Below are positions 2 to 64,000 of a stretch of DNA of 64,000 nt, piece after piece (the stretch's first letter is position 1; the number at the start of each line of letters is the position of its first letter). Below the pieces are notes generated by a model, which was given only the letters and a program-made list of their open reading frames with translations, was not told the origin of the DNA and did no database searches. Location of the stretch: positions 1,474 to 65,473 of the IMG/VR virus record IMGVR_UViG_3300037458_000547; one strand, given 5' to 3'. The stretch is from a virus. Lineage: Duplodnaviria; Caudoviricetes. The position numbers were made by a program, and so were the translations under genes.

Positions 2-3000
2 GTCGCGCTGGCAGAGGAGTTCCAGGGCGAGGCCAGCAAGCAGGTCGCCAAGGAGAAGGCCAGGGGCGAGAAACAGGAGGAGCGAGACCGGAAGAAGGCG
101 GAGCGGGAGCGCCAGAAGGCCGAGAAGGACGCGGCCGAGCGCCCGGCCAAGGTGGCCTCGAAGACCAGCCGCTTCAAGAACCGCGCCTTCCGCGAGGCCG
201 CGCAGCTCGAGGCCGTAATGACTGCGGCCGAGCAGGACGGCAACTTCCGCGACAACGCCATGACGGCGGTGACCGGCTACATCGAGCAGCAGAAGGCCGA
301 GGACGGAATCGAGGCCGAGGCATGGTCGAACGTCAAGGCGTTCGTCGGCGAGGTCTCGAAAGAGAACCAGGAGTTCTGGGAGGGCCTGCAGAAAGAGGCC
401 AAGAAGCAGCGTCGCGCCCTGGACCGCCAGAAATACCGCACGCAGGAGGTCTATGACGCCGCCCTGACCGAGGCCCTGCAGGAGGCGGAGCTGCCGATCG
501 ACGCGGAGGAGGCCAAGGCGTTCCGAGCCGGCTGGGATCACATGCTCGCCGGCAAGACGGCCTCGACGCTCACCGGCGACAACATGAAGGCGCGGCGCGA
601 CGGGTACGACGCCGCCAAGAAGTGGGTTAAGCGCACCGCCCAGGGCAAGGCATGGTACGACGGCGCTCCGCTCGAGAAAGAGAAGGCCACCGGGACCCGC
701 GTGAAGCGCCGCATGGACGAGCTGCGTCGCGAAGTCGAGGCGATGACCGACCTCGAGCTGGCCTGGAAGGAGATCGAGAAGGACACCTCGCGCATCGCGC
801 TGTTCAACCCGACGCTGGCCGAGGGCGCCACGCCCGGAACGAAGCGATATGTCGAGGCCCTGCGCGACCGGATCCTGCCGCTCAAGAGCTACATCAAGAA
901 GCAGATCTTCCGGCGCCGCGGCTGGACCTTCGAGAGAAGCCTGCAGGAGGCAGCCAAGCGCGACGCCGCTTACGTCGAGGAGATCAAGAAACAGATCCTC
1001 GCCGTGACCGAGGAATACCAGAAGCTGGTGGGCGAGCTGAACGATTCGCTCGAGGGTTCTGACTCGGTTCTCGATGCGTCGACCAGGCTGACCGCGTACT
1101 ACGTCAAGCGGCCAACGCCGAACTCGCCCTACTCTCCGACCGAGCAGGCGACGAGCCTCGAGCGGTACATGCGCGACCACTTCCGGTGGTGGCACCCGTT
1201 TGTGCGCCCACTCCCGGGAAGCAACTATTACGGGAGCGAGACCCGCAGCCTCGAGGGCAAGGAGCAGGACGCCCCCGAGGAGCGCACCAAGCAGCTGCGC
1301 CACCCGCGCCTGGATCGCGTGATTCGCGAGGGGCGACGCGACATCCGCAAGGGCAAGGACGTTTCCGCCAAGGACTTCAAGGACACCTTCGGCTTCGCTG
1401 ACGTGGACATGGGCGAGTGGGTGCAGTCGCGGGAGTCTCGCGACAACTTCAACTACGCCTTCGATGCGTTCATGGACCTGGCGGACCTGATGGGGATCCC
1501 GCCGTCGGCCATCGGGTTCAACAGGACCCTGCACTTCTCGGTGGGCCGGACGGGCCGCGGCGTCGGCGCGGCCGCTCACTTCAGCGATCGCGAGAAAGTC
1601 GAGAACCCGAAGGCGGGCGAGCCCGACGAAGTCCCGAACATCAACATCACCAAGGAACACGGCGACGGGTCGCTCGCGCACGAGTGGACACACGCGCTCG
1701 ACTGGCTGAACGGCACGGTGGTCGAGGGCCGCAAGCCGACCCTGGCCACGACCGTCGATGTCGTCCAGGCGCTCAAGTACCAGGACAAGGACTGGTCGGC
1801 CGACCTCGAGTCTCAGGCGCTCGATTACCTACGCGGAAAGAAGACCTGGTGGGGCATGCCGGCGGATGCGACGCCGCGGGATCACATGGTCGAGTGGCTG
1901 CGCAACACCCACTTCCAGCGAGAGCCGACCCGGTTCTACAGCGCCGCCCTGAAGCTGGACGGCAACCAGGCCGGCAAATACTGGTCCGACAACATGGAGC
2001 TGATCGCCCGCGCCGGCGAAGCCTACATTGTCGACACGCTGATGGGCCTGCAGCAGGACACCGAGGCGGCGTTCATCGGGCCGCCTAAGCCAGCGATCAA
2101 CAACTACCTGGTGAACCCGGAATTCGCGGGCGACGGCAAGGCGAAGCCGCCCATGTACCGCGGAACGCCGTACCCGATCGGCGACGAGCGGGCGGTGATG
2201 CGCGACATCATGAAGGTCTGGTACGACGCCATCGAGGTGAAGGATGGCAAGCCGACCCTCAAGGAGAACGCGGCCGAACACCTCAACCCAGGCAAGAACT
2301 TCGAGAAGGCCAAGAGCGCCCTGCTGCTGCGCCTCGACGAACTCGAGAGCCAGGTAGCCGCGGAGAAGGCCGAGGAGGCGAAGAAGTCTGAGGAGGAGCG
2401 CCGCCAGCAGCGCGAGAAGGAAGAAGCCGAGCAGCGTGCCCGCGACGAGGCAGAGCGCAAGAAGCGCGAGGAGGCCGGGCGGATGCCGGGATGGTCCGTG
2501 GAGTCGATCCGCGCCGTCCCGGAGTTCATGGACACGCAGCCGGGTCCGCTGGGGATCCACCAGGGCATCTTCAACCTGATGACGCAGCAGCTCGCCTGGG
2601 CGCAGAAGTCCGGCGAGAAGATCACCCCGGCCATGGGGGAGCAGCGCGACTCGAATTGGTTTGAAGCCGTCGGCATCCCTCACGACCACAAGGTTCCGCC
2701 CATCTGGGAGAACCCGCAGGTCGACAGCGAGGACCTGCCCCCCAAGGAAGATCCGAATGCGATCTCCAAGGAGGAGCGCGACAAGCTGATCGAGGACATC
2801 TTCGCCCTGGACGACGAGGCGGAGGAGGCCCCCGGAGAGGAGCCAGAGGCCGACAAGCCCGCGAAGCCGAAGAAGCCCCGCGGCGAGGCCAAGCCCCGCG
2901 AACCGAAACAGCCCGGCGAAAAGCGCGAGCCCAGACCGAAGGCGGCTACGGACAAGACCGCAGGCGAGCTGATCCGCGAAGCCGGTAAGCTCGGCGTGAA

Positions 3001-6000
3001 GGGCATCGACGAGGCTCTGACCGGCCTGGCCGAGCTGTTCGGCGCCAGCAAGGGCGGGCGACTCAACTCGTTCCCGGCCGGCTTCGACCAGGAGGCGTAT
3101 GCGAGGGCCAAGCCGCACTTCCAGGCCGCGCTCGCCGCGTTCAAGGCGGCCGGACGGACGCTGGCCGACTTCATCGCGGTCATCAAGGCAGCCGTCCCGA
3201 AGGAGCTGCGCCCCGGCTACATGGTCATGCTCAAGCAGTACGCTGATGAGCAGGACCTCTATAACGATCTCAGCACGAAGGAGGAGCGCGATGGCCGATC
3301 ATCCATTGAACCGTCTGATCAACAAGGTGCAGCTCCTCAACCAAAACGCCCAGAACAAGGCTTGCCTGGGGATGCTGCCGGAGGGTCGTCTACAGGACCC
3401 GAAGCAGATCCACAGCGTCGGCCTCGCGCTGATGGGGGTGGAGTTCCTGAAGAAGGCGGACTACAAGGACCTCCGGTCACTGGTGCCGGAGCTGGAGGCA
3501 ACGCTGGCGCAGGTCCTGGAGCTGCCCCCGGAGAGGCAGCAGGCGGCGCTGTGGGCGGAGGACGAGGACGGGACACCGGCGGTGTCACCGGCGGAGCTGG
3601 CGCAGATGTCGCGGGAGGAAGCGGCGACAACGCTCCTGCAGAATCTGCTGTAGAGGGGCTGTTCGAGGACTACACCCCAGCCAAGGTCAAGATCGAGGGG
3701 GCGCAGCCGCACCCTGGAGACCTGGTGCAGTCGGCCGCCATGAACTCGGTCGAGCCCCCCGACCCGACCTACACGCCCGACCTTCCGCCCGAGACGATCG
3801 CGCAGGGCAAGCTGTCGATCGCGCAGCTCGAGTCCATCGTCTACGGCAACATGGCGTTCCAGCAGTTCCTGCCGAACGGCGAGCGCATGGGGTTCGCCAT
3901 CGGGGATGGCACGGGTGTCGGCAAAGGCCGCGAGATCGCGGGATTCATCCTCGACCAGTGGCGCCGCGGGAACAAGAAGCACATCTGGGTCACCGAGAAG
4001 ATCGACCTCGGCGCCGACGCGCTGCGCGACATGCTGGGGGTCGGCCTCGACGTGCCGATCCTCATGTACGACCGGCCGAAGAAGTGGCCCAAGCCGGGCC
4101 AGGACAACTTCCGCCCGCTGAACCTGCAGCGCGACAAGAAAGCGCCGCTGCAGTTCGGTGAGGGCGTGGTCATCGTCACCTACGACAACCTGCGCAGCGC
4201 CGGCGGGAGGATCGTCGAGAACCTGACGACCTGGGCCGGCAAGGGCTACGAAGGCATGCTGGTGTTCGACGAGGCGCACTCGCTCGGCAACGCCGTCGCC
4301 AAGAAGGGTCTCCAGCCGAGCAAGAAGGCCGCCGCCGGCATGAGGCTGGCTGAGGGCCTGCGCATGAGCAGGACGCTGTACGTCTCGGCGACCATGGCGA
4401 CCGAGCCGCGCAACCTCGGGTTCCTGCAGCGACTGGGTCTGTGGGGCGACGGAACGGCGTTCGCCAATGCCGCCGATTTCATCGACAACATCTCCTCGCT
4501 CGGCAAGGTAGCGATGGAGACCGTGGCCCGCGACATGAAGGCGCTCGGCCTCTATATCTCGCGCACGCTGTCCTACAAGCCGGTGAAGTTCCAGCCGTTG
4601 CATCACCGGGCTGACGCCGACGAAGCGCAGCTCTATGACGATGCTGCAAAGCTGTGGGACACGCTGCGCACCGAAATCCAGATGGCGATGGCGTGGTCTG
4701 GCCTGGGCGACAACACGATGTCGCAATACTGGGGAGCCCACCAGCGGTTCTTCAACCTGTTCATGACCTCGCTGTCGACTTCCGCCGTCATCGACCAGAT
4801 CAGGGCGGTGACGACCGGAGAGAGTGGCGGGACGGCCGTCGTCCAGCTCGTCAATCACTATGGCTCGATGACCGAGGAAATGGCCGCCAAGGGGCCGGAT
4901 CCGAACGAGTCCGACGAGGAGGCGGAAGACGAGAGCCTGTCGATGACGCCGGCGCAGATCATCGAGAGCTGGATCGAAAAGAAGTTCCCGGTCTACAACT
5001 ACGTTCCGGTGCCCGGGGTCAACCCGAAGACGGGCAAGCCGACCGTGAAGTGGGAGCCCGTAAGGGGCCCGGACGGCAAGCCGATGGAGGTCAAAGAGCT
5101 GGTAGCGCGTCGCGACTACATGCTTGGGCTGGCCCGCAGGCTCGGCAAGAACGCGAAGATGCCCGGCAACCCGATCAACATGATCGTGGAGGCATTCCCG
5201 GACCAGACCGTGGAGGTGTCCGGGCGGAACAAGCGGTATCTGCGCAAGACGGCGAACGGCAAGACCGAGATCATCGAGGAGGTCCGGGCTGACGAGGTAA
5301 TCGCGAAGGAGCTGGAGGACTTCCAGGAGGACCGCAAGCGCATCCTGATCTTCTCCGAGAAGGGCGGCACCGGGTTCTCGTATCACGCCAGCAAGGAGCC
5401 GAAGAACAAGAACCGCCGGCAGCGCCACCATTTCGTTCTGCAGGCCGGCTGGAAGGCCGACAAGACGTTCCAGGGCATGGGGCGCACGCACCGAACCTTC
5501 CAGGAGTCGGCGCCGATCTACTACCTGGTGAAGACCGACATCGAGGCGCAGTCGCGCTTCATCTCGTCGATCGCCAGCCGCCTCGGGCAGCTCGGGGCAC
5601 TCGCCATGGGCGAGCGCAAGGGCGCGAGCCAGGGGCTGTTCCAGGGCGACGAGGACATTCAGGACGAGTACGGCCACCTGGCGCTACAGCAGATCTTCCG
5701 GGACATCTACGATGGTCGCGCCACGATCACGGCGCCACCGGAAAGGACGGGGACGGTAGAGACCGACCTCGAGAACCTGATGATGGCGCTGCGCGTGCCC
5801 GCCGAGAAGATGGGCGACGTGTTCGACATCCTGCGAAGCGCGAACACCGACCAGCGATACGCCCAGGATGTCGCCCGGCAGATGTTCCGCGCTGGCGACA
5901 TGAGCCCGCCAGACCCGCGGAAGATGACCAACCGGGTCCTCGAGGACCTGTCCATCCTGGTCGAGCGCCATCAGTCGGCGCGGCTTGGGCGCACGCGCAC

Positions 6001-9000
6001 GATGCGGTTCAACGAGATCCTGCGCCTGATGGGCAAGGAGCCGTTGCCGCCTCACTCGCAGTGGCAGCCGGGCGTGGCGCCGGACATGCACGACTTCCTC
6101 AACCGATCGCTCGGCCTGACGATCAAGAACACCGACGGCTACGACGGCGTGATGAAGCAGCTGTTCTCGCTGTTCAACGACCGCCGCGAGGACATGATCC
6201 TGCAGGCCAAGGAAAACGGGACCTTCGACGAGGGGCTCGAGCTGATCCCGGCCATCGCGGTCAAGAAAGTCATCGACAAGGTGGTGTCTCGCGAGACGCG
6301 CACCGGGGCGGCGACCCGCTATCTCGAACTCGAGCTGACCCAGAAGGAGACCATCAACACCTTCCAGGAGATCGAGCAGCTTGCCGCTGTATCGGGGCCG
6401 CAGTTCGTCGGCTACTTCCGGGACAACACCGACGGCAAGGTCTTCGCCGTCATCCAGCGCAGGTCGCAGATCGCCGGACAGTCGCGAGGCCAGCGTTGGG
6501 ACGTGACCGGAGCGCCCCGGACGATCGACAACGTGGACAACATCCAGCGCGGCGGCCAGGAGCGGCTGGTGGACAAGGAGGGGCCGACCTTCAAGGGTCA
6601 GGCGTTCTCCGTGCGCAAGGAGCCGGCGGCCGCGAAGTTCGATGCCACCCCATTGATCGTGGCGGCCCGCGAAGGCGGGGTTACCGCCATGCAAGAGAAG
6701 GCCGCCAGGGACTTCCAGGGCTACATCAAGGATCACTCGCCTGCAGAGCAGGCGGTTATGCGCGAGGCTGTCGCCGAGGCCCGTGACCGCATCGCCAAGG
6801 CGTACTCGGCATGGACGGCCTCGCAGGCTGGTCTGGAGCCCGCCGAGAAAATCGCCTTCGCCATGAACTCGTTTGTAGTCTCGAAGAAGGCCGACGGCTA
6901 CCCGGAAACCTTCTGGGCGACCACCCTGATCGAGGTGTTCAATGAGCGCGGCCCGGAGTACGCGGCCGAGTACGTCAAGCGGCAGCTCGGCGAGAACAGC
7001 GGCAGCGAGCTGATGCAGGAGGCGATCAACGAAGCCTGGGCGCGGGTGCAGAAGGAAGCGGTGACGGCCGTCGCCCCGCGGCGCGTGAGGCATTACGAGG
7101 CCCTGAATTCGCCGCGGATCACCTCGGCCCCGACATTCGGATCCAGCACCGCAGACCCGAAGGATCCTCGCAACTGGGCCGAGCGGGCCTGGGGCGATGC
7201 CCTGGCGGCCGCGCCCAAGACCAAGACGGTCACCCAGCACATGATCGCCGGCGCCACCCTGCCGGTGTGGGACAAGTTCGACCCGGGCCAGAAGATCCGC
7301 GTGGGCCGCGTCAAGACTGGTGACGAGACGATTCTGGGTCGGCTCATCAAAGAGGCCGACCTCGATCGCGTGCTGCAGAGACTGGGCGTCAACATCCTCG
7401 GCGAGCTAACGCCGATCAAGTTGATGGGCCGCATCATGCGCGGGCAGAGCGTTGCGCTGGCCAATGGCGTGAAGCTCATGAAGGACCGCTACAACAACGC
7501 CAGCGTGATCCGCCTGTACGTCGACTCCTACGAGGCACGGGCGGCAGAGAAAGTGCTGATGGACGCTGGCTCGCCCGAGCGCATTGCCATGGAGGTGTCC
7601 GGAGTTCGATTCACGACCCGGAAGACCTCATGGGGATCTGAAAACCTGTTCATCTACATCGAGGGCGGCGACTCCCGCGCCATGGAGACGGTTCTAAAGT
7701 GGTCTCCGGCCATGGCCCTGCAGGGCACGATGGCGTCGCGCTCCGGCGCGAAGCCGGCCCGCGGCTCGAGCGTCGCCCAAGTGCGCGAGTGGATCGCGCC
7801 CATGGTGCGGGAGCTGGGCTCGGTGGTGCGCTTCGAGGTAGTCCAGTCGGTGTCTGAGCTGGGTGACGACACCGTGAACTCGGACACCGAGGGCGTCTAC
7901 TGGCGCGGCACGAACGTCGTCTCGCTGGTGGCCGATCAGCTGCCCTCCCAGGGCCGGGCCGCCCGCGTCGCGATCCACGAGGTCTTCGGGCATCTGGCGC
8001 CCGAGGCGCATCCGCTGTTCGCGGACGCGATCGACGGAATCCTGCGGCTCAAGGCGATGGGCCACCAGAAGATCGTGGCCGCCTGGGACAAGGTCGCCGC
8101 GCTCGAGCCCACGCTCGACAAGCGCGACCATGCCGCCGAAGTCCTGGCCCGGATCGCCGAGGCAGGCGTCGAGGTCGCGCCGCTCGAGAAGCTCAAGGCG
8201 AAGATCCTCGGTCTGTTGCGCAAGGTGTTTCCGGGCATCGAGTTCCGCGAGTACGAGGTCCGGGCGTTCATCGCCAACGCCGGCAAGGCGCTCATGAAGC
8301 GGGCGCAGAAGACACAGGCCGGTCTCGAGCGGCGGGCCCGCGGCGGCGACGCCAACGCCCGGGAGTTCCTCGGGCAGCTGTGGGCGGAGGCCAACGGCCC
8401 GTGGATCGAGGAGGGCCGGCGCAATGACGAGCTGACCGACGAGGAGTGGCTCGGCACGCGAGCCCACCTGGATCGCGCCTACTCCCGTTCCGCAGACATG
8501 ACGGCCGACGAGGAGGCGAGCTACGAGCGCCTGTTCGGACGCTCTCGCAAGCCGCTGTCGCTGCGCGACCATGCCCGGGGGTGGGTGCAGCGGCTGAAGA
8601 ACATCGACGCGCTGGAGCTGCGCCAGGGTGTGGTGGACGCCTACGCCTCGGTGAAAGACCTCGAGGAGGGGCAGTACGGCGAGGTCCTCGACGCCGCGGA
8701 CTCCGCCTGGAAGGCCATGCTTGCCACTCGCAACCATGCCTCGGTGATGGCGGCGGTCATGAGCAAGGGCGTGCCGAAGCTGATCGACGGCGTTTACCAG
8801 CCGGTCGCGGGCCGCAAGGGGTTCCTCGAGATCCTTCGGCCGCTGGTCGAGCATTCCGACGGCAACCTGATCGACCACTGGCAGCTGTGGGCAGCCGCCA
8901 ATCGTGCGCAGCGGCTCATCAGCGAGGGCAAAGAGCAGCGCATGTCGATGGTCGACATCCAGCGCGGCCTGGCGCTCGGGGTTCGGTATCCGTTCTTCAG

Positions 9001-11131
9001 GGACGTGCTGACCGACTGGACCGAGTTCAACAAGCAGGCGCTGGACATGGCCCAGGAGGCCGGCATTCTCGACGCCGGGATGCGCAGCATCTGGGAGAAG
9101 GACGACTACGTCCCCTTCTATCGGGTCCTCGACGAGCTGGACGTGATGGCGCCCGGCAAGAAACGCGGGTTCTCAGGGCAAAAGGCGCTCATCAAGAAGC
9201 TGAAAGGCGGCGAGGCGCCGCTCAACGATGTCATCGAGAACATGGTGATGAACACCAGCTCGCTGATCGACCGCAGCTTCAAGAACATCGCCATGCAGCG
9301 CGTCGTGGGTCTGGCCGAGGGGAACGGGATGACGCGCATCCCGAAGGCGGTCCAGGGCGCGATGTTCTCTGAGGACCAGGTGGAGCGGGCCCTGTCGGCG
9401 AACGGCGTGAACATCGACCAGATGACGCCGACCGACCGAGACCGGTACGTCAAGCTGTTCAGGCGCGTCGCTCCGGTCGGCCACAACGTCGTGTCGGTCT
9501 ACCGGGACGGCAAGCCGGAGTTCTTCCAGGTGGAAGACCCGCTGCTGCTGCGCTCGATCCTGGGCCTGGGTGCGGACCAGATCAGCGACGTGTTCAACCT
9601 GTTCGTGGGCGCCAAGCGGTTCCTGACCAGCATGGTCACGGCCGACCCGGCGTTCATGGGCGCGAACCTGATCCGCGACACGCTGGCGAACTGGATCCAG
9701 TCCGGCATCGAGGGCAACCCGCTGAAGGGCGCGATCAAGGGCATGGCCAAGTCCCTCAAGGAGGACGAGTCGGTCTGGCGAATCATGATGGCCGGCGGCG
9801 GCGGCGGCGGGTACTACGACTCGAACCCCGAGGACATTAAGAAGCTGCTGCGCAATCACGTCCCGGCGCACCAGATCAGCGGGTTCATGGACACCATCAT
9901 CAGCCCGAAGCGGCTGTGGAAGGCGTGGCACCGCATCGGCGCCGCGACCGAGAACGCGAATCGCCTGGCGGTCTATGAGGCGGTGAAGAAGGCCGGCGGC
10001 ACCGAGGCCGAGGCGATCTACCAGGCCCGCGACGTGCTGAACTTCACCATGAGCGGCGATCACGCGGCGGTCCGCCACCTGGTCGCGATGGTGCCGTTCA
10101 TGAACGCCCGCATCCAGGGCCTGTACCGCCTCTCTCGAGGCTACAAGGATCACCCGCAGTCGTTCCTGATCCGCGGCCTGTCGCTGATGGCCGCCACCAT
10201 GGCGCTCGCGGCCGCAAACCTCGGCGACGACGAGTACGAGGAGCTGCCGGAGTGGGACAAGGACATCTACTGGCACGTCTTCCTGCCGCCGGATGCAGAA
10301 GGCAAGCGGGCGCACTACCGCATCCCGAAGCCCTTTGAGCTGGGCATCATCTTCGGCACGATTCCGGAGCGGCTGTTCAGGGCGACCTCGGGAGCCGACG
10401 ACACCAAGGATTTCGCTCGCTCGATGGGCCGGGCGATCTCCGACACCCTGGCGTTCAACCCGATCCCGCAGCTGGTCAAGCCGGCAGTGGAGCAGTACGC
10501 CAATCGCTCGATGTTCACGGGCTCGGCGATCGTCGGTCACGCCGAGCAGAACCTGATTCCCGAGAAGCAGTACACGCCCTGGACCTCTGAAACGGCGCGG
10601 GTGATGGCCGAGCTGATGCCTGGGTTTGCGCCCGAGTGGGCCCGCAGCCCGCGGCGCCTCGAGCATGCGGTCCGCGCCTACGCCGGCACCCTGGGCATGT
10701 ATGCGCTGTCGGCGGCCGACTTCTTCACGCGCCGCATCGGCGACTTCCCGGAGCCGCCCACGGGTAAGATCTACGAGATGCCGGTGATCTCGAGGTTCGT
10801 GCGCGACCCCGATCCGCGCATCACCAAGTACAGCGACGAGCTGTACGAGATGCTCGACGAGGCCAATGCGCTGTTCTCGACGGTGAAGCGGCTGCAGAAG
10901 TCCGGCCAGAAGGAGGAAGCCAAGTCCATGCGCGAGGAGAACATCGAGAAGCTGCGGGCGCGGAAGTCGCTCAATGACATCGCCGGCAACGTGCGCAAGC
11001 TCAACAACCAGATCCGGATGACGATGGTCTCCAATCTCGAGCCGGACGAGAAGCGCCGGCGGATCGACCTGCTCACCGAGCGCAAGAACGACCAGATGCG
11101 TCGCATCCAGCGTTTCGAGGGCGTGTTCTGA
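2..11131 (+). CDS. Giant polyvalent (internal virion-type) protein, 5'-partial: LPD1-like zincin peptidase, Strawberry-notch-type SF2 helicase, second HExxH domain, LPD38-like C-terminus
   Basis: Frame is open from base 2 (VALAEEFQG...), so 152 is not the true start. Motifs: GSLAHEWTHALD (~1670-1703); YWSDNMELIARAGEAY and YPIGDER (LPD1-like); GDGTGVGKGRE, FDEAH, YVSAT, QGMGRTHRTFQ (Strawberry notch); AIHEVFGH (~7970); YRIPKPFELG (LPD38-like). Confidence 0.9.
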   Translation, partial: VALAEEFQGEASKQVAKEKARGEKQEERDRKKAERERQKAEKDAAERPAKVASKTSRFKNRAFREAAQLEAVMTAAEQDGNFRDNAMTAVTGYIEQQKAEDGIEAEAWSNVKAFVGEVSKENQEFWEGLQKEAKKQRRALDRQKYRTQEVYDAALTEALQEAELPIDAEEAKAFRAGWDHMLAGKTASTLTGDNMKARRDGYDAAKKWVKRTAQGKAWYDGAPLEKEKATGTRVKRRMDELRREVEAMTDLELAWKEIEKDTSRIALFNPTLAEGATPGTKRYVEALRDRILPLKSYIKKQIFRRRGWTFERSLQEAAKRDAAYVEEIKKQILAVTEEYQKLVGELNDSLEGSDSVLDASTRLTAYYVKRPTPNSPYSPTEQATSLERYMRDHFRWWHPFVRPLPGSNYYGSETRSLEGKEQDAPEERTKQLRHPRLDRVIREGRRDIRKGKDVSAKDFKDTFGFADVDMGEWVQSRESRDNFNYAFDAFMDLADLMGIPPSAIGFNRTLHFSVGRTGRGVGAAAHFSDREKVENPKAGEPDEVPNINITKEHGDGSLAHEWTHALDWLNGTVVEGRKPTLATTVDVVQALKYQDKDWSADLESQALDYLRGKKTWWGMPADATPRDHMVEWLRNTHFQREPTRFYSAALKLDGNQAGKYWSDNMELIARAGEAYIVDTLMGLQQDTEAAFIGPPKPAINNYLVNPEFAGDGKAKPPMYRGTPYPIGDERAVMRDIMKVWYDAIEVKDGKPTLKENAAEHLNPGKNFEKAKSALLLRLDELESQVAAEKAEEAKKSEEERRQQREKEEAEQRARDEAERKKREEAGRMPGWSVESIRAVPEFMDTQPGPLGIHQGIFNLMTQQLAWAQKSGEKITPAMGEQRDSNWFEAVGIPHDHKVPPIWENPQVDSEDLPPKEDPNAISKEERDKLIEDIFALDDEAEEAPGEEPEADKPAKPKKPRGEAKPREPKQPGEKREPRPKAATDKTAGELIREAGKLGVKGIDEALTGLAELFGASKGGRLNSFPAGFDQEAYARAKPHFQAALAAFKAAGRTLADFIAVIKAAVPKELRPGYMVMLKQYADEQDLYNDLSTKEERDGRSSIEPSDQQGAAPQPKRPEQGLPGDAAGGSSTGPEADPQRRPRADGGGVPEEGGLQGPPVTGAGAGGNAGAGPGAAPGEAAGGAVGGGRGRDTGGVTGGAGADVAGGSGDNAPAESAVEGLFEDYTPAKVKIEGAQPHPGDLVQSAAMNSVEPPDPTYTPDLPPETIAQGKLSIAQLESIVYGNMAFQQFLPNGERMGFAIGDGTGVGKGREIAGFILDQWRRGNKKHIWVTEKIDLGADALRDMLGVGLDVPILMYDRPKKWPKPGQDNFRPLNLQRDKKAPLQFGEGVVIVTYDNLRSAGGRIVENLTTWAGKGYEGMLVFDEAHSLGNAVAKKGLQPSKKAAAGMRLAEGLRMSRTLYVSATMATEPRNLGFLQRLGLWGDGTAFANAADFIDNISSLGKVAMETVARDMKALGLYISRTLSYKPVKFQPLHHRADADEAQLYDDAAKLWDTLRTEIQMAMAWSGLGDNTMSQYWGAHQRFFNLFMTSLSTSAVIDQIRAVTTGESGGTAVVQLVNHYGSMTEEMAAKGPDPNESDEEAEDESLSMTPAQIIESWIEKKFPVYNYVPVPGVNPKTGKPTVKWEPVRGPDGKPMEVKELVARRDYMLGLARRLGKNAKMPGNPINMIVEAFPDQTVEVSGRNKRYLRKTANGKTEIIEEVRADEVIAKELEDFQEDRKRILIFSEKGGTGFSYHASKEPKNKNRRQRHHFVLQAGWKADKTFQGMGRTHRTFQESAPIYYLVKTDIEAQSRFISSIASRLGQLGALAMGERKGASQGLFQGDEDIQDEYGHLALQQIFRDIYDGRATITAPPERTGTVETDLENLMMALRVPAEKMGDVFDILRSANTDQRYAQDVARQMFRAGDMSPPDPRKMTNRVLEDLSILVERHQSARLGRTRTMRFNEILRLMGKEPLPPHSQWQPGVAPDMHDFLNRSLGLTIKNTDGYDGVMKQLFSLFNDRREDMILQAKENGTFDEGLELIPAIAVKKVIDKVVSRETRTGAATRYLELELTQKETINTFQEIEQLAAVSGPQFVGYFRDNTDGKVFAVIQRRSQIAGQSRGQRWDVTGAPRTIDNVDNIQRGGQERLVDKEGPTFKGQAFSVRKEPAAAKFDATPLIVAAREGGVTAMQEKAARDFQGYIKDHSPAEQAVMREAVAEARDRIAKAYSAWTASQAGLEPAEKIAFAMNSFVVSKKADGYPETFWATTLIEVFNERGPEYAAEYVKRQLGENSGSELMQEAINEAWARVQKEAVTAVAPRRVRHYEALNSPRITSAPTFGSSTADPKDPRNWAERAWGDALAAAPKTKTVTQHMIAGATLPVWDKFDPGQKIRVGRVKTGDETILGRLIKEADLDRVLQRLGVNILGELTPIKLMGRIMRGQSVALANGVKLMKDRYNNASVIRLYVDSYEARAAEKVLMDAGSPERIAMEVSGVRFTTRKTSWGSENLFIYIEGGDSRAMETVLKWSPAMALQGTMASRSGAKPARGSSVAQVREWIAPMVRELGSVVRFEVVQSVSELGDDTVNSDTEGVYWRGTNVVSLVADQLPSQGRAARVAIHEVFGHLAPEAHPLFADAIDGILRLKAMGHQKIVAAWDKVAALEPTLDKRDHAAEVLARIAEAGVEVAPLEKLKAKILGLLRKVFPGIEFREYEVRAFIANAGKALMKRAQKTQAGLERRARGGDANAREFLGQLWAEANGPWIEEGRRNDELTDEEWLGTRAHLDRAYSRSADMTADEEASYERLFGRSRKPLSLRDHARGWVQRLKNIDALELRQGVVDAYASVKDLEEGQYGEVLDAADSAWKAMLATRNHASVMAAVMSKGVPKLIDGVYQPVAGRKGFLEILRPLVEHSDGNLIDHWQLWAAANRAQRLISEGKEQRMSMVDIQRGLALGVRYPFFRDVLTDWTEFNKQALDMAQEAGILDAGMRSIWEKDDYVPFYRVLDELDVMAPGKKRGFSGQKALIKKLKGGEAPLNDVIENMVMNTSSLIDRSFKNIAMQRVVGLAEGNGMTRIPKAVQGAMFSEDQVERALSANGVNIDQMTPTDRDRYVKLFRRVAPVGHNVVSVYRDGKPEFFQVEDPLLLRSILGLGADQISDVFNLFVGAKRFLTSMVTADPAFMGANLIRDTLANWIQSGIEGNPLKGAIKGMAKSLKEDESVWRIMMAGGGGGGYYDSNPEDIKKLLRNHVPAHQISGFMDTIISPKRLWKAWHRIGAATENANRLAVYEAVKKAGGTEAEAIYQARDVLNFTMSGDHAAVRHLVAMVPFMNARIQGLYRLSRGYKDHPQSFLIRGLSLMAATMALAAANLGDDEYEELPEWDKDIYWHVFLPPDAEGKRAHYRIPKPFELGIIFGTIPERLFRATSGADDTKDFARSMGRAISDTLAFNPIPQLVKPAVEQYANRSMFTGSAIVGHAEQNLIPEKQYTPWTSETARVMAELMPGFAPEWARSPRRLEHAVRAYAGTLGMYALSAADFFTRRIGDFPEPPTGKIYEMPVISRFVRDPDPRITKYSDELYEMLDEANALFSTVKRLQKSGQKEEAKSMREENIEKLRARKSLNDIAGNVRKLNNQIRMTMVSNLEPDEKRRRIDLLTERKNDQMRRIQRFEGVF
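3291..3653 (+). CDS. Nested (overprinted) 120-aa helical protein inside the giant ORF
   Basis: AAGGAGGAG at 3278-3286 precedes ATG 3291. Third-position GC bias moves from the host frame to this frame over exactly this interval. Ends at TAG 3653. Confidence 0.7.
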   Translation: MADHPLNRLINKVQLLNQNAQNKACLGMLPEGRLQDPKQIHSVGLALMGVEFLKKADYKDLRSLVPELEATLAQVLELPPERQQAALWAEDEDGTPAVSPAELAQMSREEAATTLLQNLL

Positions 11132-62448: not shown

Positions 62449-62451
62449 CTG

Positions 62452-64000
62452 GTGGCCGCCAACCTGTTCGATCCCCAAGGGCCACGGCTGGCAACGGACC
62501 CGTACACCGGCGAGACCTTCGAGGTCTCCCCGGAGATCGACGCCCAGTTCCTGCCGCTGCGGCCGCGGGCGCCGCTCGAGGACCTCGAGCCCGCCCCACC
62601 GGAGCCGATGACCCCGGAGTGGTCCGACTACGGCCGCCTCATCATGCGGGGCGGAGCGGGTCTGGGCGCCGGCGCCGGCTGGGTCCTGAAAGCGATCGGA
62701 CTCGAGGACGTGGGCGGGGCGATCGAGACCCTCGGCAACGATGCCGTGGACTACTGGACGCAGAGCCTGTCTCCGGCCATGCAGAAGGAGATGGCCAAGC
62801 AGTTTGTCGTCCAGAACCCGGAGACGGGCGAGTACGAGTGGGGTGACGCGGGCCTGAGGACGGCGGCGGCGATGGGCGCTGAGTCGGTTCTCGGAACGAT
62901 GGCCGGCATGGGCGTGGGCGGCGGGATCACCAAGGTCCTGCAGGCGTTCGCCAATCCGGTCGGACGCGCTGCTCTGCAGACGGCCGTCCAGCAGGGCACC
63001 CGGACCGGGGCCACGGCTGCCCAGGCGGCCCGTGCCGCAGCGGCTGCCAAGAAGCTCGCGGTGGTCGACTCGGTGATCGGCGCGGCCGGCTTCGGCGCCG
63101 GCGAGGGCGCGGTGTCCGCGATGACCTCGGCCCCCTCGGCCTACGAGATGGTCAAGAACATGGACCCGGCGAAGCTCGCGACCAACGAGCGGTATCGCCA
63201 GGTGTTCGACTCGACCGACGAGAATATGACCTGGGAGGAGCGCCACGCCTACGCTGCTGACACGGTGGCGATGGAGGCGGCCTCTGTGGCCGGGTTCCAG
63301 GCGGGCCTCACCACGAGCCTCCTGGGCGCTCCTATGGGCGCCTTCTTCGGGCGCCTCATCGGCAAGGGCGCGGCCTCGGCGCTCTCCAAGACGCCCCTGC
63401 GGGCGGCCGCGACCGGTGCGCTCGGCGAGTCGGCCCAGGAGTTCGCGCAGTCCGGCACCGAGCAGCTCATCGCCAACAAGGCGGCGATCGGGGCCGGCGA
63501 CAAGGATAAGGACCTGTTCGAGGGCGTCCTGAACCAGGCGGTCGGCGGCGCGGTCGCCGGCGCGGTCATGGGCGGACCCTTCGGCCTGTACGAGGGCCGC
63601 CAGAACCAGCTGGCGCAGCCGCCTACTACTCAGCCCCCGGCGGGCGCGACTACCCCGCCCGTCATCCCCCCCGCGGCAGGGACTCCCCCGCCTGGGGCTG
63701 TTCCGCCGACGGTTCCGCCCGGGACTCCCCCTGGCGTTTCGCCGCCGGCGCCCGCCGCGCCAGGTGCGCCGCCGCCCGTGCAGCCGGCAACACCGCAGGC
63801 CCCGGCGGCCATCCAGTACCCGGCGGGCATGGATCCGCGCAGCAAGCCGACGGTCGAGCCGCTGGTGCAGAAAGCGCTCGCCGCCGGCGTCGATCCAGTG
63901 GTTCTCCAGGAGACGGTCAACGCGCTCGAAAAGCGCGGCCAGCTGCTGCCGACCCTCAAGAGGCTGAACGACCTGATCGCGGACGCCGGGCAGCAGCCTG
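62452..64000 (+). CDS. 3'-partial large internal virion protein, probably the N-terminus of the giant polyvalent protein
   Basis: GTG after GGGAG; open to the window end and absent from the ORF track; Ala/Gly amphipathic helices with GESAQEFAQSGTEQ, then a Pro-rich linker. Confidence 0.75.
   Translation, partial: MAANLFDPQGPRLATDPYTGETFEVSPEIDAQFLPLRPRAPLEDLEPAPPEPMTPEWSDYGRLIMRGGAGLGAGAGWVLKAIGLEDVGGAIETLGNDAVDYWTQSLSPAMQKEMAKQFVVQNPETGEYEWGDAGLRTAAAMGAESVLGTMAGMGVGGGITKVLQAFANPVGRAALQTAVQQGTRTGATAAQAARAAAAAKKLAVVDSVIGAAGFGAGEGAVSAMTSAPSAYEMVKNMDPAKLATNERYRQVFDSTDENMTWEERHAYAADTVAMEAASVAGFQAGLTTSLLGAPMGAFFGRLIGKGAASALSKTPLRAAATGALGESAQEFAQSGTEQLIANKAAIGAGDKDKDLFEGVLNQAVGGAVAGAVMGGPFGLYEGRQNQLAQPPTTQPPAGATTPPVIPPAAGTPPPGAVPPTVPPGTPPGVSPPAPAAPGAPPPVQPATPQAPAAIQYPAGMDPRSKPTVEPLVQKALAAGVDPVVLQETVNALEKRGQLLPTLKRLNDLIADAGQQP

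What the first reader, a model, noticed from the sequence alone, without database searches (positions are those of the whole stretch)
3278..3653. Overprinted 120-aa gene hidden inside the giant polyvalent protein
Seen: over 3291-3653 the giant ORF turns into a Gly/Ala/Pro/Gln low-complexity linker with many A/T-ending codons (GAT GGC CGA TCA TCC ATT GAA...), unlike the rest of the gene. The shifted frame reads MADHPLNRLINKVQLLNQNAQNKACLGMLPEG...EEAATTLLQNLL* with mostly G/C-ending codons and an AAGGAGGAG SD just before the ATG. It sits between the peptidase half and the helicase. Inference: it is a real, separately translated helical protein. It could be an inhibitor or chaperone genetically locked to the toxic peptidase or helicase, so effector and control cannot be separated by recombination.
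Basis: partly seen in the sequence, partly recalled or inferred. Interest (0 to 1): 0.85.

Follow-up and report, generated by a model that had tools for sequence, protein, structure and literature searches.

The report
Hidden gene inside giant phage gene
A real, unannotated gene for a small folded acidic protein is written in a shifted reading frame inside the floppy linker of a giant (about 4,700-residue) phage protein, and about 80 related phage genomes keep the same two-frame layout; what the small protein does is unknown.

Summary
Over 3291-3653 codon bias switches from the giant frame to the +1 frame; nowhere else in the 11-kb ORF does this happen.

The +1 frame (ATG 3291 to TAG 3653, 120 aa) evolves under purifying selection (dN/dS 0.16-0.40). 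The giant frame over the same bases drifts as a Gly/Ala/Pro spacer but never acquires a stop.

A profile of the small protein finds a +1-frame ORF at the same site, just before the Strawberry-notch helicase domain, in 71 of 80 related viral contigs and in one plasmid. Eight more contigs carry an unrelated ORF of similar size starting at the same ATG; the 80th is cut off there. Three free-standing homologues exist.

AlphaFold2 gives a confident all-helical model (pLDDT 89) with no match in the structure libraries searched, and no Pfam or PHROG family fits.

An ATG start in 59 of 63 loci, a Shine-Dalgarno motif in 46 of 63, and stops just upstream of the ATG point to separate initiation. Translation is not shown.

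The "inhibitor or chaperone locked to the enzyme" idea is untested, and the free-standing copies weaken it.

Earlier notes of this scan report the same layout on other DNA, with other nested families. I found no paper describing it.

The parts
3291..3653 (+). Nested gene, +1 frame relative to the giant gene: ATG 3291, TAG 3651-3653, 120 aa (P0001). Acidic (pI 4.8), predicted as an eight-helix globular protein.
   Evidence: -: ORF and GC by codon position 0.73/0.36/0.87.
- dN/dS 0.16-0.40.
- pLDDT 89.1.
- family members.
- pI.
3278..3286 (+). Shine-Dalgarno-like AAGGAGGAG; the GGAGG core lies 6 nt upstream of the nested ATG. In the giant frame it encodes K-E-E.
   Evidence: -.
- among close relatives only AAGG and the ATG are invariant.
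- across 63 distinct viral loci, 46 have GGAG/GAGG/AGGA at -17..-5, against 10.5% at control ATGs.
- the context is ctGGAGGnnnnnnnn-ATG.
3290..3652 (+). The same DNA read in the giant frame: a 120-residue Gly/Ala/Pro-rich, probably disordered linker of the polyvalent protein (P0002 aa ~1047-1167).
   Evidence: -: GC3 0.355.
- 58% G+A+P, 7% hydrophobic.
- dN/dS 1.6-3.0 in this frame.
- never interrupted by a stop in any relative.
2..11131 (+). Window part of the giant polyvalent protein gene. Pfam domains on P0002: LPD1, AAA_34, Helicase_C_4 and LPD38.
   Evidence: -.
- the full-length relative P0007 is 4,685 aa.
62449..64000 (+). 5' part of the same giant gene, which runs across the ends of the linear record. 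This stretch is 72% identical to P0007 aa 1-401, and window base 2 onward matches P0007 aa 968 onward.
2939..3286 (+). Conserved helical domain just upstream of the nested gene (P0002 aa ~930-1045). In most homologues it precedes an N6-adenine methyltransferase domain. It is probably the LPD36 domain of Iyer et al. 2017; that identification was not tested.
   Evidence: -: conserved in more than 55 giant homologues.
- description of LPD36.
3707..6241 (+). Strawberry-notch-type helicase module: AAA_34 at aa 1186-1496 and Helicase_C_4 at aa 1673-2030. Its conserved N-terminal lead-in starts at the nested stop codon.

Best explanation
Bases 3291-3653 encode two proteins on the same strand.

In the +1 frame they carry a complete small gene with a Shine-Dalgarno motif, ATG and TAG. 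It encodes a 120-residue, acidic, globular all-helical protein of a family not found in Pfam, PHROGs or the structure libraries searched.

In the giant frame the same bases are read through as a Gly/Ala/Pro-rich flexible tether. The tether joins the N-terminal half of a ~4,700-residue virion-type polyvalent protein to its Strawberry-notch helicase.

Selection acts on the amino-acid sequence of the small protein. On the giant frame it acts only to keep the frame open and its length roughly constant.

Inferred, not shown:
- The small protein is made by internal initiation on the giant gene's mRNA. The ribosome-binding site and ATG are built into the last conserved residues before the linker: L-L-E-G-V-R-D/N in relatives that have the methyltransferase, K-E-E-R-D here.
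- Function (weak inference): a non-enzymatic binding protein, because no conserved catalytic-type residues are seen, that works in the same anti-defence setting as the methylase-helicase dyad. It is not strictly dependent on that dyad.
- Origin: the linker is best seen as the small gene read in another frame, not as an older linker that was later overprinted.
For: 1. Codon bias switches frame exactly at the ATG and at the stop, and only here in the 11-kb ORF.
2. Among five close relatives, variable sites by nested codon position are 32/21/53. dN/dS is 0.16-0.40 in the nested frame, 1.6-3.0 in the giant frame, and 0.07-0.17 in the giant frame just downstream. Three further clades give 0.14-0.53, apart from one pair at 0.73.
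3. Both frames are open in every relative, and a 3-nt deletion in L003 preserves both.
4. Profile searches find members only 23-36% identical at the same site and in the same +1 frame.
5. An iterated profile hits 71 of 80 IMG/VR loci, most at E below 1e-12, always just before the helicase. Nothing else among 7,772 ORFs scores better than E 0.27. Reversed decoys reach 0.19 at best and shuffled decoys 0.68. The loci include phages of 36-48% GC.
6. With 10 sequences AlphaFold2 gives pLDDT 89.1 and pTM 0.80.
7. Three free-standing homologues have the other frames closed. In L015 the similarity to giant genes covers exactly the small ORF.
8. 59 of 63 distinct loci start with ATG and 46 of 63 have a Shine-Dalgarno motif, against 10.5% of control ATGs. 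Alt-frame stops lie 1-8 codons before the ATG in about half of them.
9. This clade lost the ~440-aa methyltransferase domain but kept the nested gene and its start context.
Against: - There is no direct evidence of translation; no Ribo-seq, proteomics or RNA data could be obtained.
- The Shine-Dalgarno motif and ATG also encode conserved residues of the giant protein. Their conservation is therefore confounded. Among the closest relatives the motif degrades to AAGGCAGAA.
- dN/dS estimates on overlapping frames are biased, and the pairwise estimates are not phylogenetically independent.
- The iterated profile was built from the loci it then scores, although the decoys were clean.
- No function is indicated by any library.
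Confidence: 0.87

Rival explanations
1. Programmed +1 ribosomal frameshifting. Ribosomes on the giant frame slip into the nested frame near 3290 and terminate at 3653. The product would be a truncated N-terminal polyprotein carrying this helical domain at its C-terminus, not a free 13-kDa protein.
For: - In the window the nested frame is open upstream to 3099.
- A purine-rich Shine-Dalgarno-like element inside a coding region can stimulate +1 shifts, as in prfB (own knowledge).
- Both frames are conserved.
Against: - In many loci a stop in the nested frame lies only 1-8 codons upstream of the ATG, which leaves no room for entry. L001 has one 18 nt upstream.
- ATG is present at the profile's N-terminus in 59 of 63 loci.
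- Free-standing homologues begin at the equivalent Met.
- No conserved slippery motif is apparent.
Confidence: 0.06
2. A chance open frame. In 66% GC DNA long ORFs in alternative frames are common, so the 120-codon frame is not a gene.
For: - The window has dozens of spurious alternative-frame ORFs of 80 aa or more.
- Stop-free +1 runs elsewhere in the related loci reach a 99th percentile of 158 codons.
Against: - Coding-type GC3 periodicity moves into this frame.
- Purifying selection acts in this frame.
- A specific sequence family is conserved down to 20% identity, including in phages of 36-48% GC.
- The fold prediction is confident.
- Free-standing homologues exist.
Confidence: 0.02
3. The giant ORF is not one protein. 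It would be two or three genes (N-terminal half, small gene, helicase half), and the stop-free giant frame across the small gene would be incidental read-through of no consequence.
For: - Gene callers on short contigs call the small gene and restart the helicase part at a conserved ATG 87 nt after the nested stop.
- The linker evolves without sequence constraint.
- The giant frame would be open by chance in 20-45% of cases.
Against: - There is no stop codon in the giant frame across the segment in any of 79 loci, including low-GC ones.
- The three free-standing copies have 1-3 stops in that frame, as chance predicts.
- The two flanks are always in the same frame, and indels keep it.
- Without a stop, ribosomes translating the upstream part must read through.
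Confidence: 0.04
4. Assembly or sequencing error. Two compensating indels would make a normal in-frame helical domain of the giant protein look out of frame.
For: None beyond the formal possibility for a single metagenomic contig.
Against: - The same layout, with a conserved in-frame stop at the end of the small ORF, appears in independent assemblies from many samples.
- None of 120 giant homologues contains the small protein's sequence in frame.
Confidence: 0.01

Closest known systems
Rz/Rz1 embedded spanin genes of phage lambda (own knowledge; not re-examined here)
   Same: A complete small gene lies wholly inside a larger phage gene, on the same strand and in the +1 frame. It has its own start signals, and both frames are maintained.
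   Different: - In lambda both products are known to be translated and to form one complex; here translation and partnership are unproven.
- In lambda both frames encode constrained sequence. Here one frame is a free-drifting disordered tether of a ~4,700-residue protein.
- The nested family here also exists as free-standing genes.
Hepatitis B virus polymerase 'spacer' overlapping the preS region of the envelope gene
   Same: The dispensable, disordered tether between two enzymatic domains of a large protein shares its DNA with a second gene in another frame. The tether tolerates whatever the other frame requires.
   Different: - That is an animal virus with a compact, fully overlapping genome. 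This is a 65-kb dsDNA phage under no comparable size pressure.
- The nested gene here lies wholly inside the linker, and different lineages hold different small genes at the same slot.
DNA methylase-helicase dyad of polyvalent proteins, archetype P1 DarB (Iyer et al. 2017, PMC5512222)
   Same: The host gene belongs to this class. It has the LPD1 and LPD38 domains and an SWI2/SNF2-type (Strawberry notch) helicase. Most homologues have the N6-adenine methyltransferase (NPPF) just before the linker.
   Different: - This phage's protein has lost the methyltransferase domain: no NPP[YFW] motif.
- The paper does not mention a linker or an overlapping gene.
- P1 darB itself has no comparable nested gene. 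Its 177-codon +1 ORF reads as non-coding over a structured stretch.
Nested +1-frame genes in giant methylase-helicase genes reported by earlier notes of this scan, some called TnpV-like (AI notes)
   Same: The layout is the same: the nested gene is coextensive with the methyltransferase-helicase linker, unannotated, and conserved in dozens of elements.
   Different: - The family in this window has no Pfam TnpV hit: 66 members at E up to 0.01 and 10 members at E up to 10.
- It is also unrelated, by hhalign, to a second set of nested ORFs at the same site and to the one in Bacteroides phage BS-TP4.

Membership tests
Embedded out-of-frame gene pair (Rz/Rz1-type architecture) | The small ORF lies wholly inside the larger ORF, on the same strand and out of frame. 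| tested here: met
   3291-3653 lies inside 2-11131 in the +1 frame. The same holds in 71 of 80 viral loci.
Embedded out-of-frame gene pair (Rz/Rz1-type architecture) | The nested gene has its own translation start signals. | tested here: met
   In the window, AAGGAGGAG precedes the ATG. Across distinct loci, 59 of 63 start with ATG and 46 of 63 have a Shine-Dalgarno motif, against 10.5% of control ATGs. These signals are confounded with conserved residues of the giant protein.
Embedded out-of-frame gene pair (Rz/Rz1-type architecture) | Both products are actually translated. | not testable with these tools
   No expression data could be obtained. The claim is inferred from selection in the nested frame and from the never-interrupted giant frame.
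Embedded out-of-frame gene pair (Rz/Rz1-type architecture) | The two products act together. | tested here: inconclusive
   No data bear on this either way. Free-standing homologues without a giant gene show that co-occurrence is not obligatory.
Polyvalent protein with methylase-helicase dyad (DarB-like; Iyer et al. 2017) | SWI2/SNF2-type helicase module. | tested here: met
   AAA_34 at E 5e-94 and Helicase_C_4 at E 3.5e-57.
Polyvalent protein with methylase-helicase dyad (DarB-like; Iyer et al. 2017) | EcoKI/TaqI-like adenine methyltransferase with NPP(Y/F), N-terminal to the helicase. | tested here: not met
   P0002 has no [DNS]PP[YFW] motif. The ~440-aa NPPF-bearing insert found in most homologues is replaced here by the linker alone. 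This is a dyad-derived protein that has lost the methylase.
Polyvalent protein with methylase-helicase dyad (DarB-like; Iyer et al. 2017) | Polyvalent-specific LPD domains in the same polypeptide. | tested here: met
   LPD1 at E 3.8e-7 and LPD38 at E 4.7e-42.
TnpV (Pfam TnpV family), suggested for nested genes elsewhere by earlier scan notes | Significant match to the Pfam TnpV model. | tested here: not met
   There is no TnpV hit among 66 family members at E up to 0.01, nor among 10 members at E up to 10. Remote homology below HMMER's reach is not excluded.
The small-protein family defined here (alignment A5) | Full-length match to the family profile: motifs LN..P.N..A...L, L..LQL..WGLE and P..AA..LL..L; 100-150 aa. 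| tested here: met
   P0001 is a seed member. Relatives score E 1e-15 to 1e-67 in whole-library searches. Alignment A5 has 66 sequences.

The most novel reading that the evidence does not exclude
The methylase-helicase linker of these giant phage proteins is not a linker that happened to be overprinted. It is a small accessory gene that the giant ORF reads through in another frame, perhaps a fusion scar of an ancestral methylase / small gene / helicase operon.

The slot then behaves as an exchangeable cassette site. Different lineages hold unrelated small genes starting at the same embedded ATG: the family found here, the A6 set, the acidic Bacteroides-phage type, and the TnpV-like genes of earlier notes. 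Copies move in and out as discrete ORFs; in L015 the homology ends exactly at the ORF borders.

The small acidic proteins would be functional partners or regulators of the ejected anti-restriction machine, or anti-defence factors in their own right.
Probability: 0.3. Interest if true: 0.85.

Novelty: new variant of a known kind. Interest (0 to 1): 0.76.

Why it matters
- Long same-strand overlapping genes are thought rare in large dsDNA phages, and gene callers suppress them. Here one is conserved across a whole class of giant virion-type anti-defence genes, and every giant-gene record whose annotation I could examine lacks it (the cultured Bacteroides phage BS-TP4 and a plasmid).
- It adds a new small-protein family with a confident model that matched nothing in PDB or BFVD. 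It sits at the heart of the methylase-helicase anti-restriction module.
- It shows a way for two genes to share DNA at almost no cost: one product needs only a floppy tether.
- It also means that 'low-complexity linkers' in giant phage and plasmid proteins deserve a frame-by-frame check.
- A silent-in-one-frame mutation makes the question directly testable.

Tried and rejected
**Searches with the single protein P0001**
- tblastn against GenBank phages and PLSDB plasmids, and a pattern scan of IMG/VR, found nothing.
- Alignment A3 as a pattern query found nothing in IMG/VR or JGI metagenomes and was unusable for genome contigs. Members were reached only through called proteins on short contigs and by scanning giant-gene loci with a local HMM.

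**Fold and family searches**
- Foldseek against PDB and BFVD gave a best E of 1.3. VIA-align wide gave a best Z of 3.7.
- The PDB sequence profile search gave a best E of 0.18.
- PHROGs and Pfam gave only scattered single-member hits.
- The ESM Atlas gave a best score of 0.82, which is uninformative.

**Complex prediction**
- The small protein against the helicase module (aa 1166-2030) returned no verdict, score 0.00. This is evidence neither way.

**Ideas tested and dropped**
- The small protein as a frameshifted remnant of the methyltransferase or another in-frame domain: it does not occur in frame in any of 120 giant homologues.
- P1 darB as a model: its 177-codon +1 ORF before the helicase is not coding-like.
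- Alphaproteobacterial plasmid methyltransferase/helicase genes of ~1,400 aa: no nested ORF.
- Neighbours of the free-standing copies: no informative Pfam hits.
- Homology between family A5 and the second ORF set A6: hhalign probability 0.1%.

- The careful tree did not finish, so only a quick tree is available.
Full report
**1. The observation**

The window is bases 1474-65473 of a 65,473-nt IMG/VR virus record. It is 66% GC, and all coding-type ORFs lie on the + strand.

One ORF runs from the window's first bases to 11131. Pfam finds LPD1, AAA_34, Helicase_C_4 and LPD38 in it. These are the domains of a 'polyvalent protein' with a Strawberry-notch helicase.

The ORF that is open at the window's end (62449-64000) is 72% identical to residues 1-401 of a 4,685-residue relative. 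Window base 2 onward matches residue 968 onward of that relative. The gene therefore runs across the ends of the record and encodes about 4,700 residues.

At 3291-3653 there is an ATG-to-TAG ORF of 120 codons in the +1 frame. AAGGAGGAG precedes it at 3278-3286.

GC by codon position over this stretch:
- nested frame: 0.73/0.36/0.87
- giant frame: 0.87/0.73/0.36
- giant gene overall: 0.65/0.44/0.89

No other 240-nt window of the 11-kb ORF has giant-frame GC3 below 0.70, and the switch coincides with the ATG and the stop. In the giant frame the stretch is 58% Gly+Ala+Pro and 7% hydrophobic.

**2. Close relatives: which frame is under selection**

A word-indexed protein search found four called proteins of 119-120 aa, 79-88% identical, on short Logan contigs. 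A 65,030-nt relative also carries the ORF.

- In all of them both frames are open. The ATG and TAG are invariant, and a 3-nt deletion in L003 preserves both frames.
- Variable sites by nested codon position are 32/21/53.
- Nei-Gojobori dN/dS is 0.16-0.40 in the nested frame and 1.6-3.0 in the giant frame over the same bases. It is 0.07-0.17 in the giant frame just downstream.
- Three further clades found later give 0.14-0.53 in the nested frame, apart from one pair at 0.73.
- Synonymous divergence in the nested frame (0.25-0.41) is lower than downstream (0.50-0.96). That is what a second constraint, keeping the other frame open, would produce.

These pairwise estimates are not independent and are biased by the overlap. 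I use them as direction, not magnitude.

**3. Distant relatives: a family, always at the same site**

An exhaustive profile search and a second word search found proteins of 108-125 aa only 23-36% identical to the window's. Their contigs show two situations.

- *Nested.* L008, L010/L014 and L012/L013 carry the ORF nested in a homologous giant gene at the same junction, in the +1 frame, with both frames open.
- *Free-standing.* L009, L011 and L015 carry it alone, with stops in the other frames. Two of these lie near integrases, and one lies beside a HigB/HTH pair.

Given each small protein and the phage's codon usage, the giant frame would be open by chance in 20-45% of simulations. The free-standing copies have 1-3 stops in that frame, as expected; the nested ones have none.

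**4. What the giant homologues show**

Among 120 giant homologues, none contains the small protein's sequence in frame.

Most have a ~440-aa insert between the conserved helical domain and the helicase. It carries methyltransferase motifs I and IV (xPxAGxGxL, NPPF). A ~120-residue Gly/Ala/Pro/Arg-rich linker follows it. This is the 'DNA methylase-helicase dyad' of Iyer et al. 2017, whose paper mentions neither a linker nor an overlap.

The window's clade has lost the methyltransferase: no NPP[YFW] motif. It has kept the linker.

The -1-frame translation of free-standing L015 matches the linker of giants P0008 and P0009. The match covers exactly 1548-1919, which is the small ORF, with no methylase or helicase remnants around it.

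**5. Survey of viral contigs**

An alignment of 14 giants retrieved 80 IMG/VR loci. I ran a local HMM of the small family against all 7,772 stop-to-stop ORFs of these loci.

- The best hit in nearly every locus was a 110-160-codon ORF on the + strand, in the +1 frame, just before the helicase.
- After iteration, 71 of 80 loci scored E below 1e-3, most below 1e-12.
- Controls: no other ORF scored better than E 0.27. Reversed decoys reached 0.19 at best and composition-preserving shuffles 0.68.
- All 71 are spanned by a giant frame open for at least 300 nt, usually kilobases, on both sides.
- The loci include phages of 36-48% GC, where GC-driven open frames are not an explanation.

Of the other nine loci, one is truncated. 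Eight carry a ~117-codon +1 ORF starting at the same embedded ATG but with unrelated sequence.

So 79 of 79 examinable loci have a linker, and every linker carries a +1 ORF. Four giant homologues with only a ~17-residue spacer have no room for one.

Other collections:
- One conjugative plasmid, Thioflavicoccus pTHIMO01, has a family member at E 1e-15 in a disrupted giant gene.
- Alphaproteobacterial ~1,400-aa methylase/helicases have none.
- No cultured phage in the GenBank phage collection has this helicase.
- The cultured Bacteroides phage BS-TP4 has a related giant gene. Its longest +1 ORF (121 codons, acidic, unannotated) lies between the NPPF motif and the helicase. It belongs to yet another sequence family.

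**6. Is it a folded protein, and how is it made?**

With five close sequences AlphaFold2 gave pLDDT 66.7. With ten diverse ones it gave pLDDT 89.1 and pTM 0.80, with eight helices. The gain with diversity indicates a co-varying, foldable family.

No match was found in PDB or BFVD, nor in PDB sequences, Pfam or PHROGs. The family is acidic, with a median pI of 4.9. It has no conserved catalytic-type residues, so a binding role is more likely than an enzymatic one.

Start signals across 63 distinct loci:
- 59 start with ATG at the profile's N-terminus.
- 46 have GGAG/GAGG/AGGA at -17..-5, against 10.5% of other ATGs.
- The common context is ctGGAGGnnnnnnnn-ATG. In the giant frame this encodes L-L-E-G-V-R-D/N at the end of the methyltransferase domain.
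- About half of the loci have a nested-frame stop 1-8 codons upstream of the ATG. This leaves no room for frameshift entry.

Together with free-standing homologues that begin at the same Met, this favours internal initiation. The signals are confounded with conserved residues of the giant protein, and translation itself is not shown.

**7. Origin and function (inference)**

The ordered, constrained frame is the small gene. The disordered, unconstrained frame belongs to the giant protein. In the usual overprinting picture this marks the linker as the derived reading (own knowledge of the overprinting literature).

Three observations fit this view:
- Linker and nested ORF always co-occur.
- Free-standing copies fall on both sides of the best-supported split of a quick tree (SH-aLRT 98).
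- Unrelated ORFs occupy the same slot in different lineages.

They fit either an old fusion of methylase and helicase genes that reads through an intervening small gene, or a slot that exchanges small-gene cassettes.

A complex prediction with the helicase module gave no verdict.

**8. Novelty**

Full-text searches found no description of an overlapping gene in polyvalent or methylase-helicase genes.

Earlier AI notes of this scan report the same layout on other genomes, some with TnpV-like nested genes. The family here is not TnpV by Pfam.

Architecturally this is an embedded out-of-frame gene, as in Rz/Rz1. The closest functional analogy is the hepatitis B polymerase spacer over preS. The kind is therefore known.

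What is new:
- the host gene class and the small-protein family;
- the near-universal conservation across this class;
- the pairing of a structured small gene with a giant protein's floppy tether.

Noticed in passing
window 62449-64000 and 2-11131: The giant polyvalent gene runs across the ends of the linear record. The 3'-open ORF at the window's end is its N-terminus (72% identical to P0007 aa 1-401). The assembly is therefore probably a circularly permuted or terminally redundant genome cut inside this gene.
   Followed up: partly
window 2939-3653 (P0002 aa ~930-1167): This clade has lost the ~440-aa N6-adenine methyltransferase domain (NPPF) that most homologues carry between the conserved helical domain and the linker. 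It kept the nested gene with its SD/ATG context.
   Followed up: yes
L046, L050, L052, L084, L088, L089, L093, L095 (e.g. L084:4726-5097): Eight IMG/VR loci (45-59% GC) carry a different ~117-aa acidic +1 ORF that starts at the same ATG, embedded in the L-E-G-x-R-N-E motif. hhalign finds no relation to the main family.
   Followed up: partly
L101:7749-8111 (PQ571277.1, about 10026-10388): Cultured Bacteroides phage BS-TP4: the giant CDS gp3 holds an unannotated 121-codon acidic +1 ORF between its NPPF methyltransferase motif and the helicase. It is the longest +1 ORF in the 14.6 kb examined, belongs to another sequence family, and offers a possible experimental system.
   Followed up: partly
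L015:1549-1920 and neighbours: A free-standing homologue sits in a small integrase-bearing element next to a HigB-like toxin and an HTH protein. Its DNA similarity to giant genes P0008 and P0009 ends exactly at the ORF borders, as if the small gene moved as a cassette.
   Followed up: partly
L096:3186-3893 (NC_019941.1, Thioflavicoccus mobilis pTHIMO01): A family member (E 1e-15) lies in the +1 frame of an unannotated stretch upstream of fragments annotated as 'strawberry notch C-terminal domain' and 'zincin-like metallopeptidase', beside an IS66. This looks like a disrupted giant polyvalent gene on a conjugative plasmid.
   Followed up: no
L100:10469-17236 (phage P1 darB): P1 darB has a 177-codon stop-free +1 run just before the helicase Walker A motif. 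It translates to Ser/Arg/Thr-rich sequence over a normally structured part of DarB and shows no frame switch, so it is probably not a gene.
   Followed up: yes
window 3740-3742 (alignment A1 columns ~509-511): A conserved in-frame ATG 87 nt after the nested stop is what gene callers use to start the 'helicase gene' on short contigs. The Met is invariant in 14 giant homologues. Whether it also serves as an internal start is unknown.
   Followed up: no
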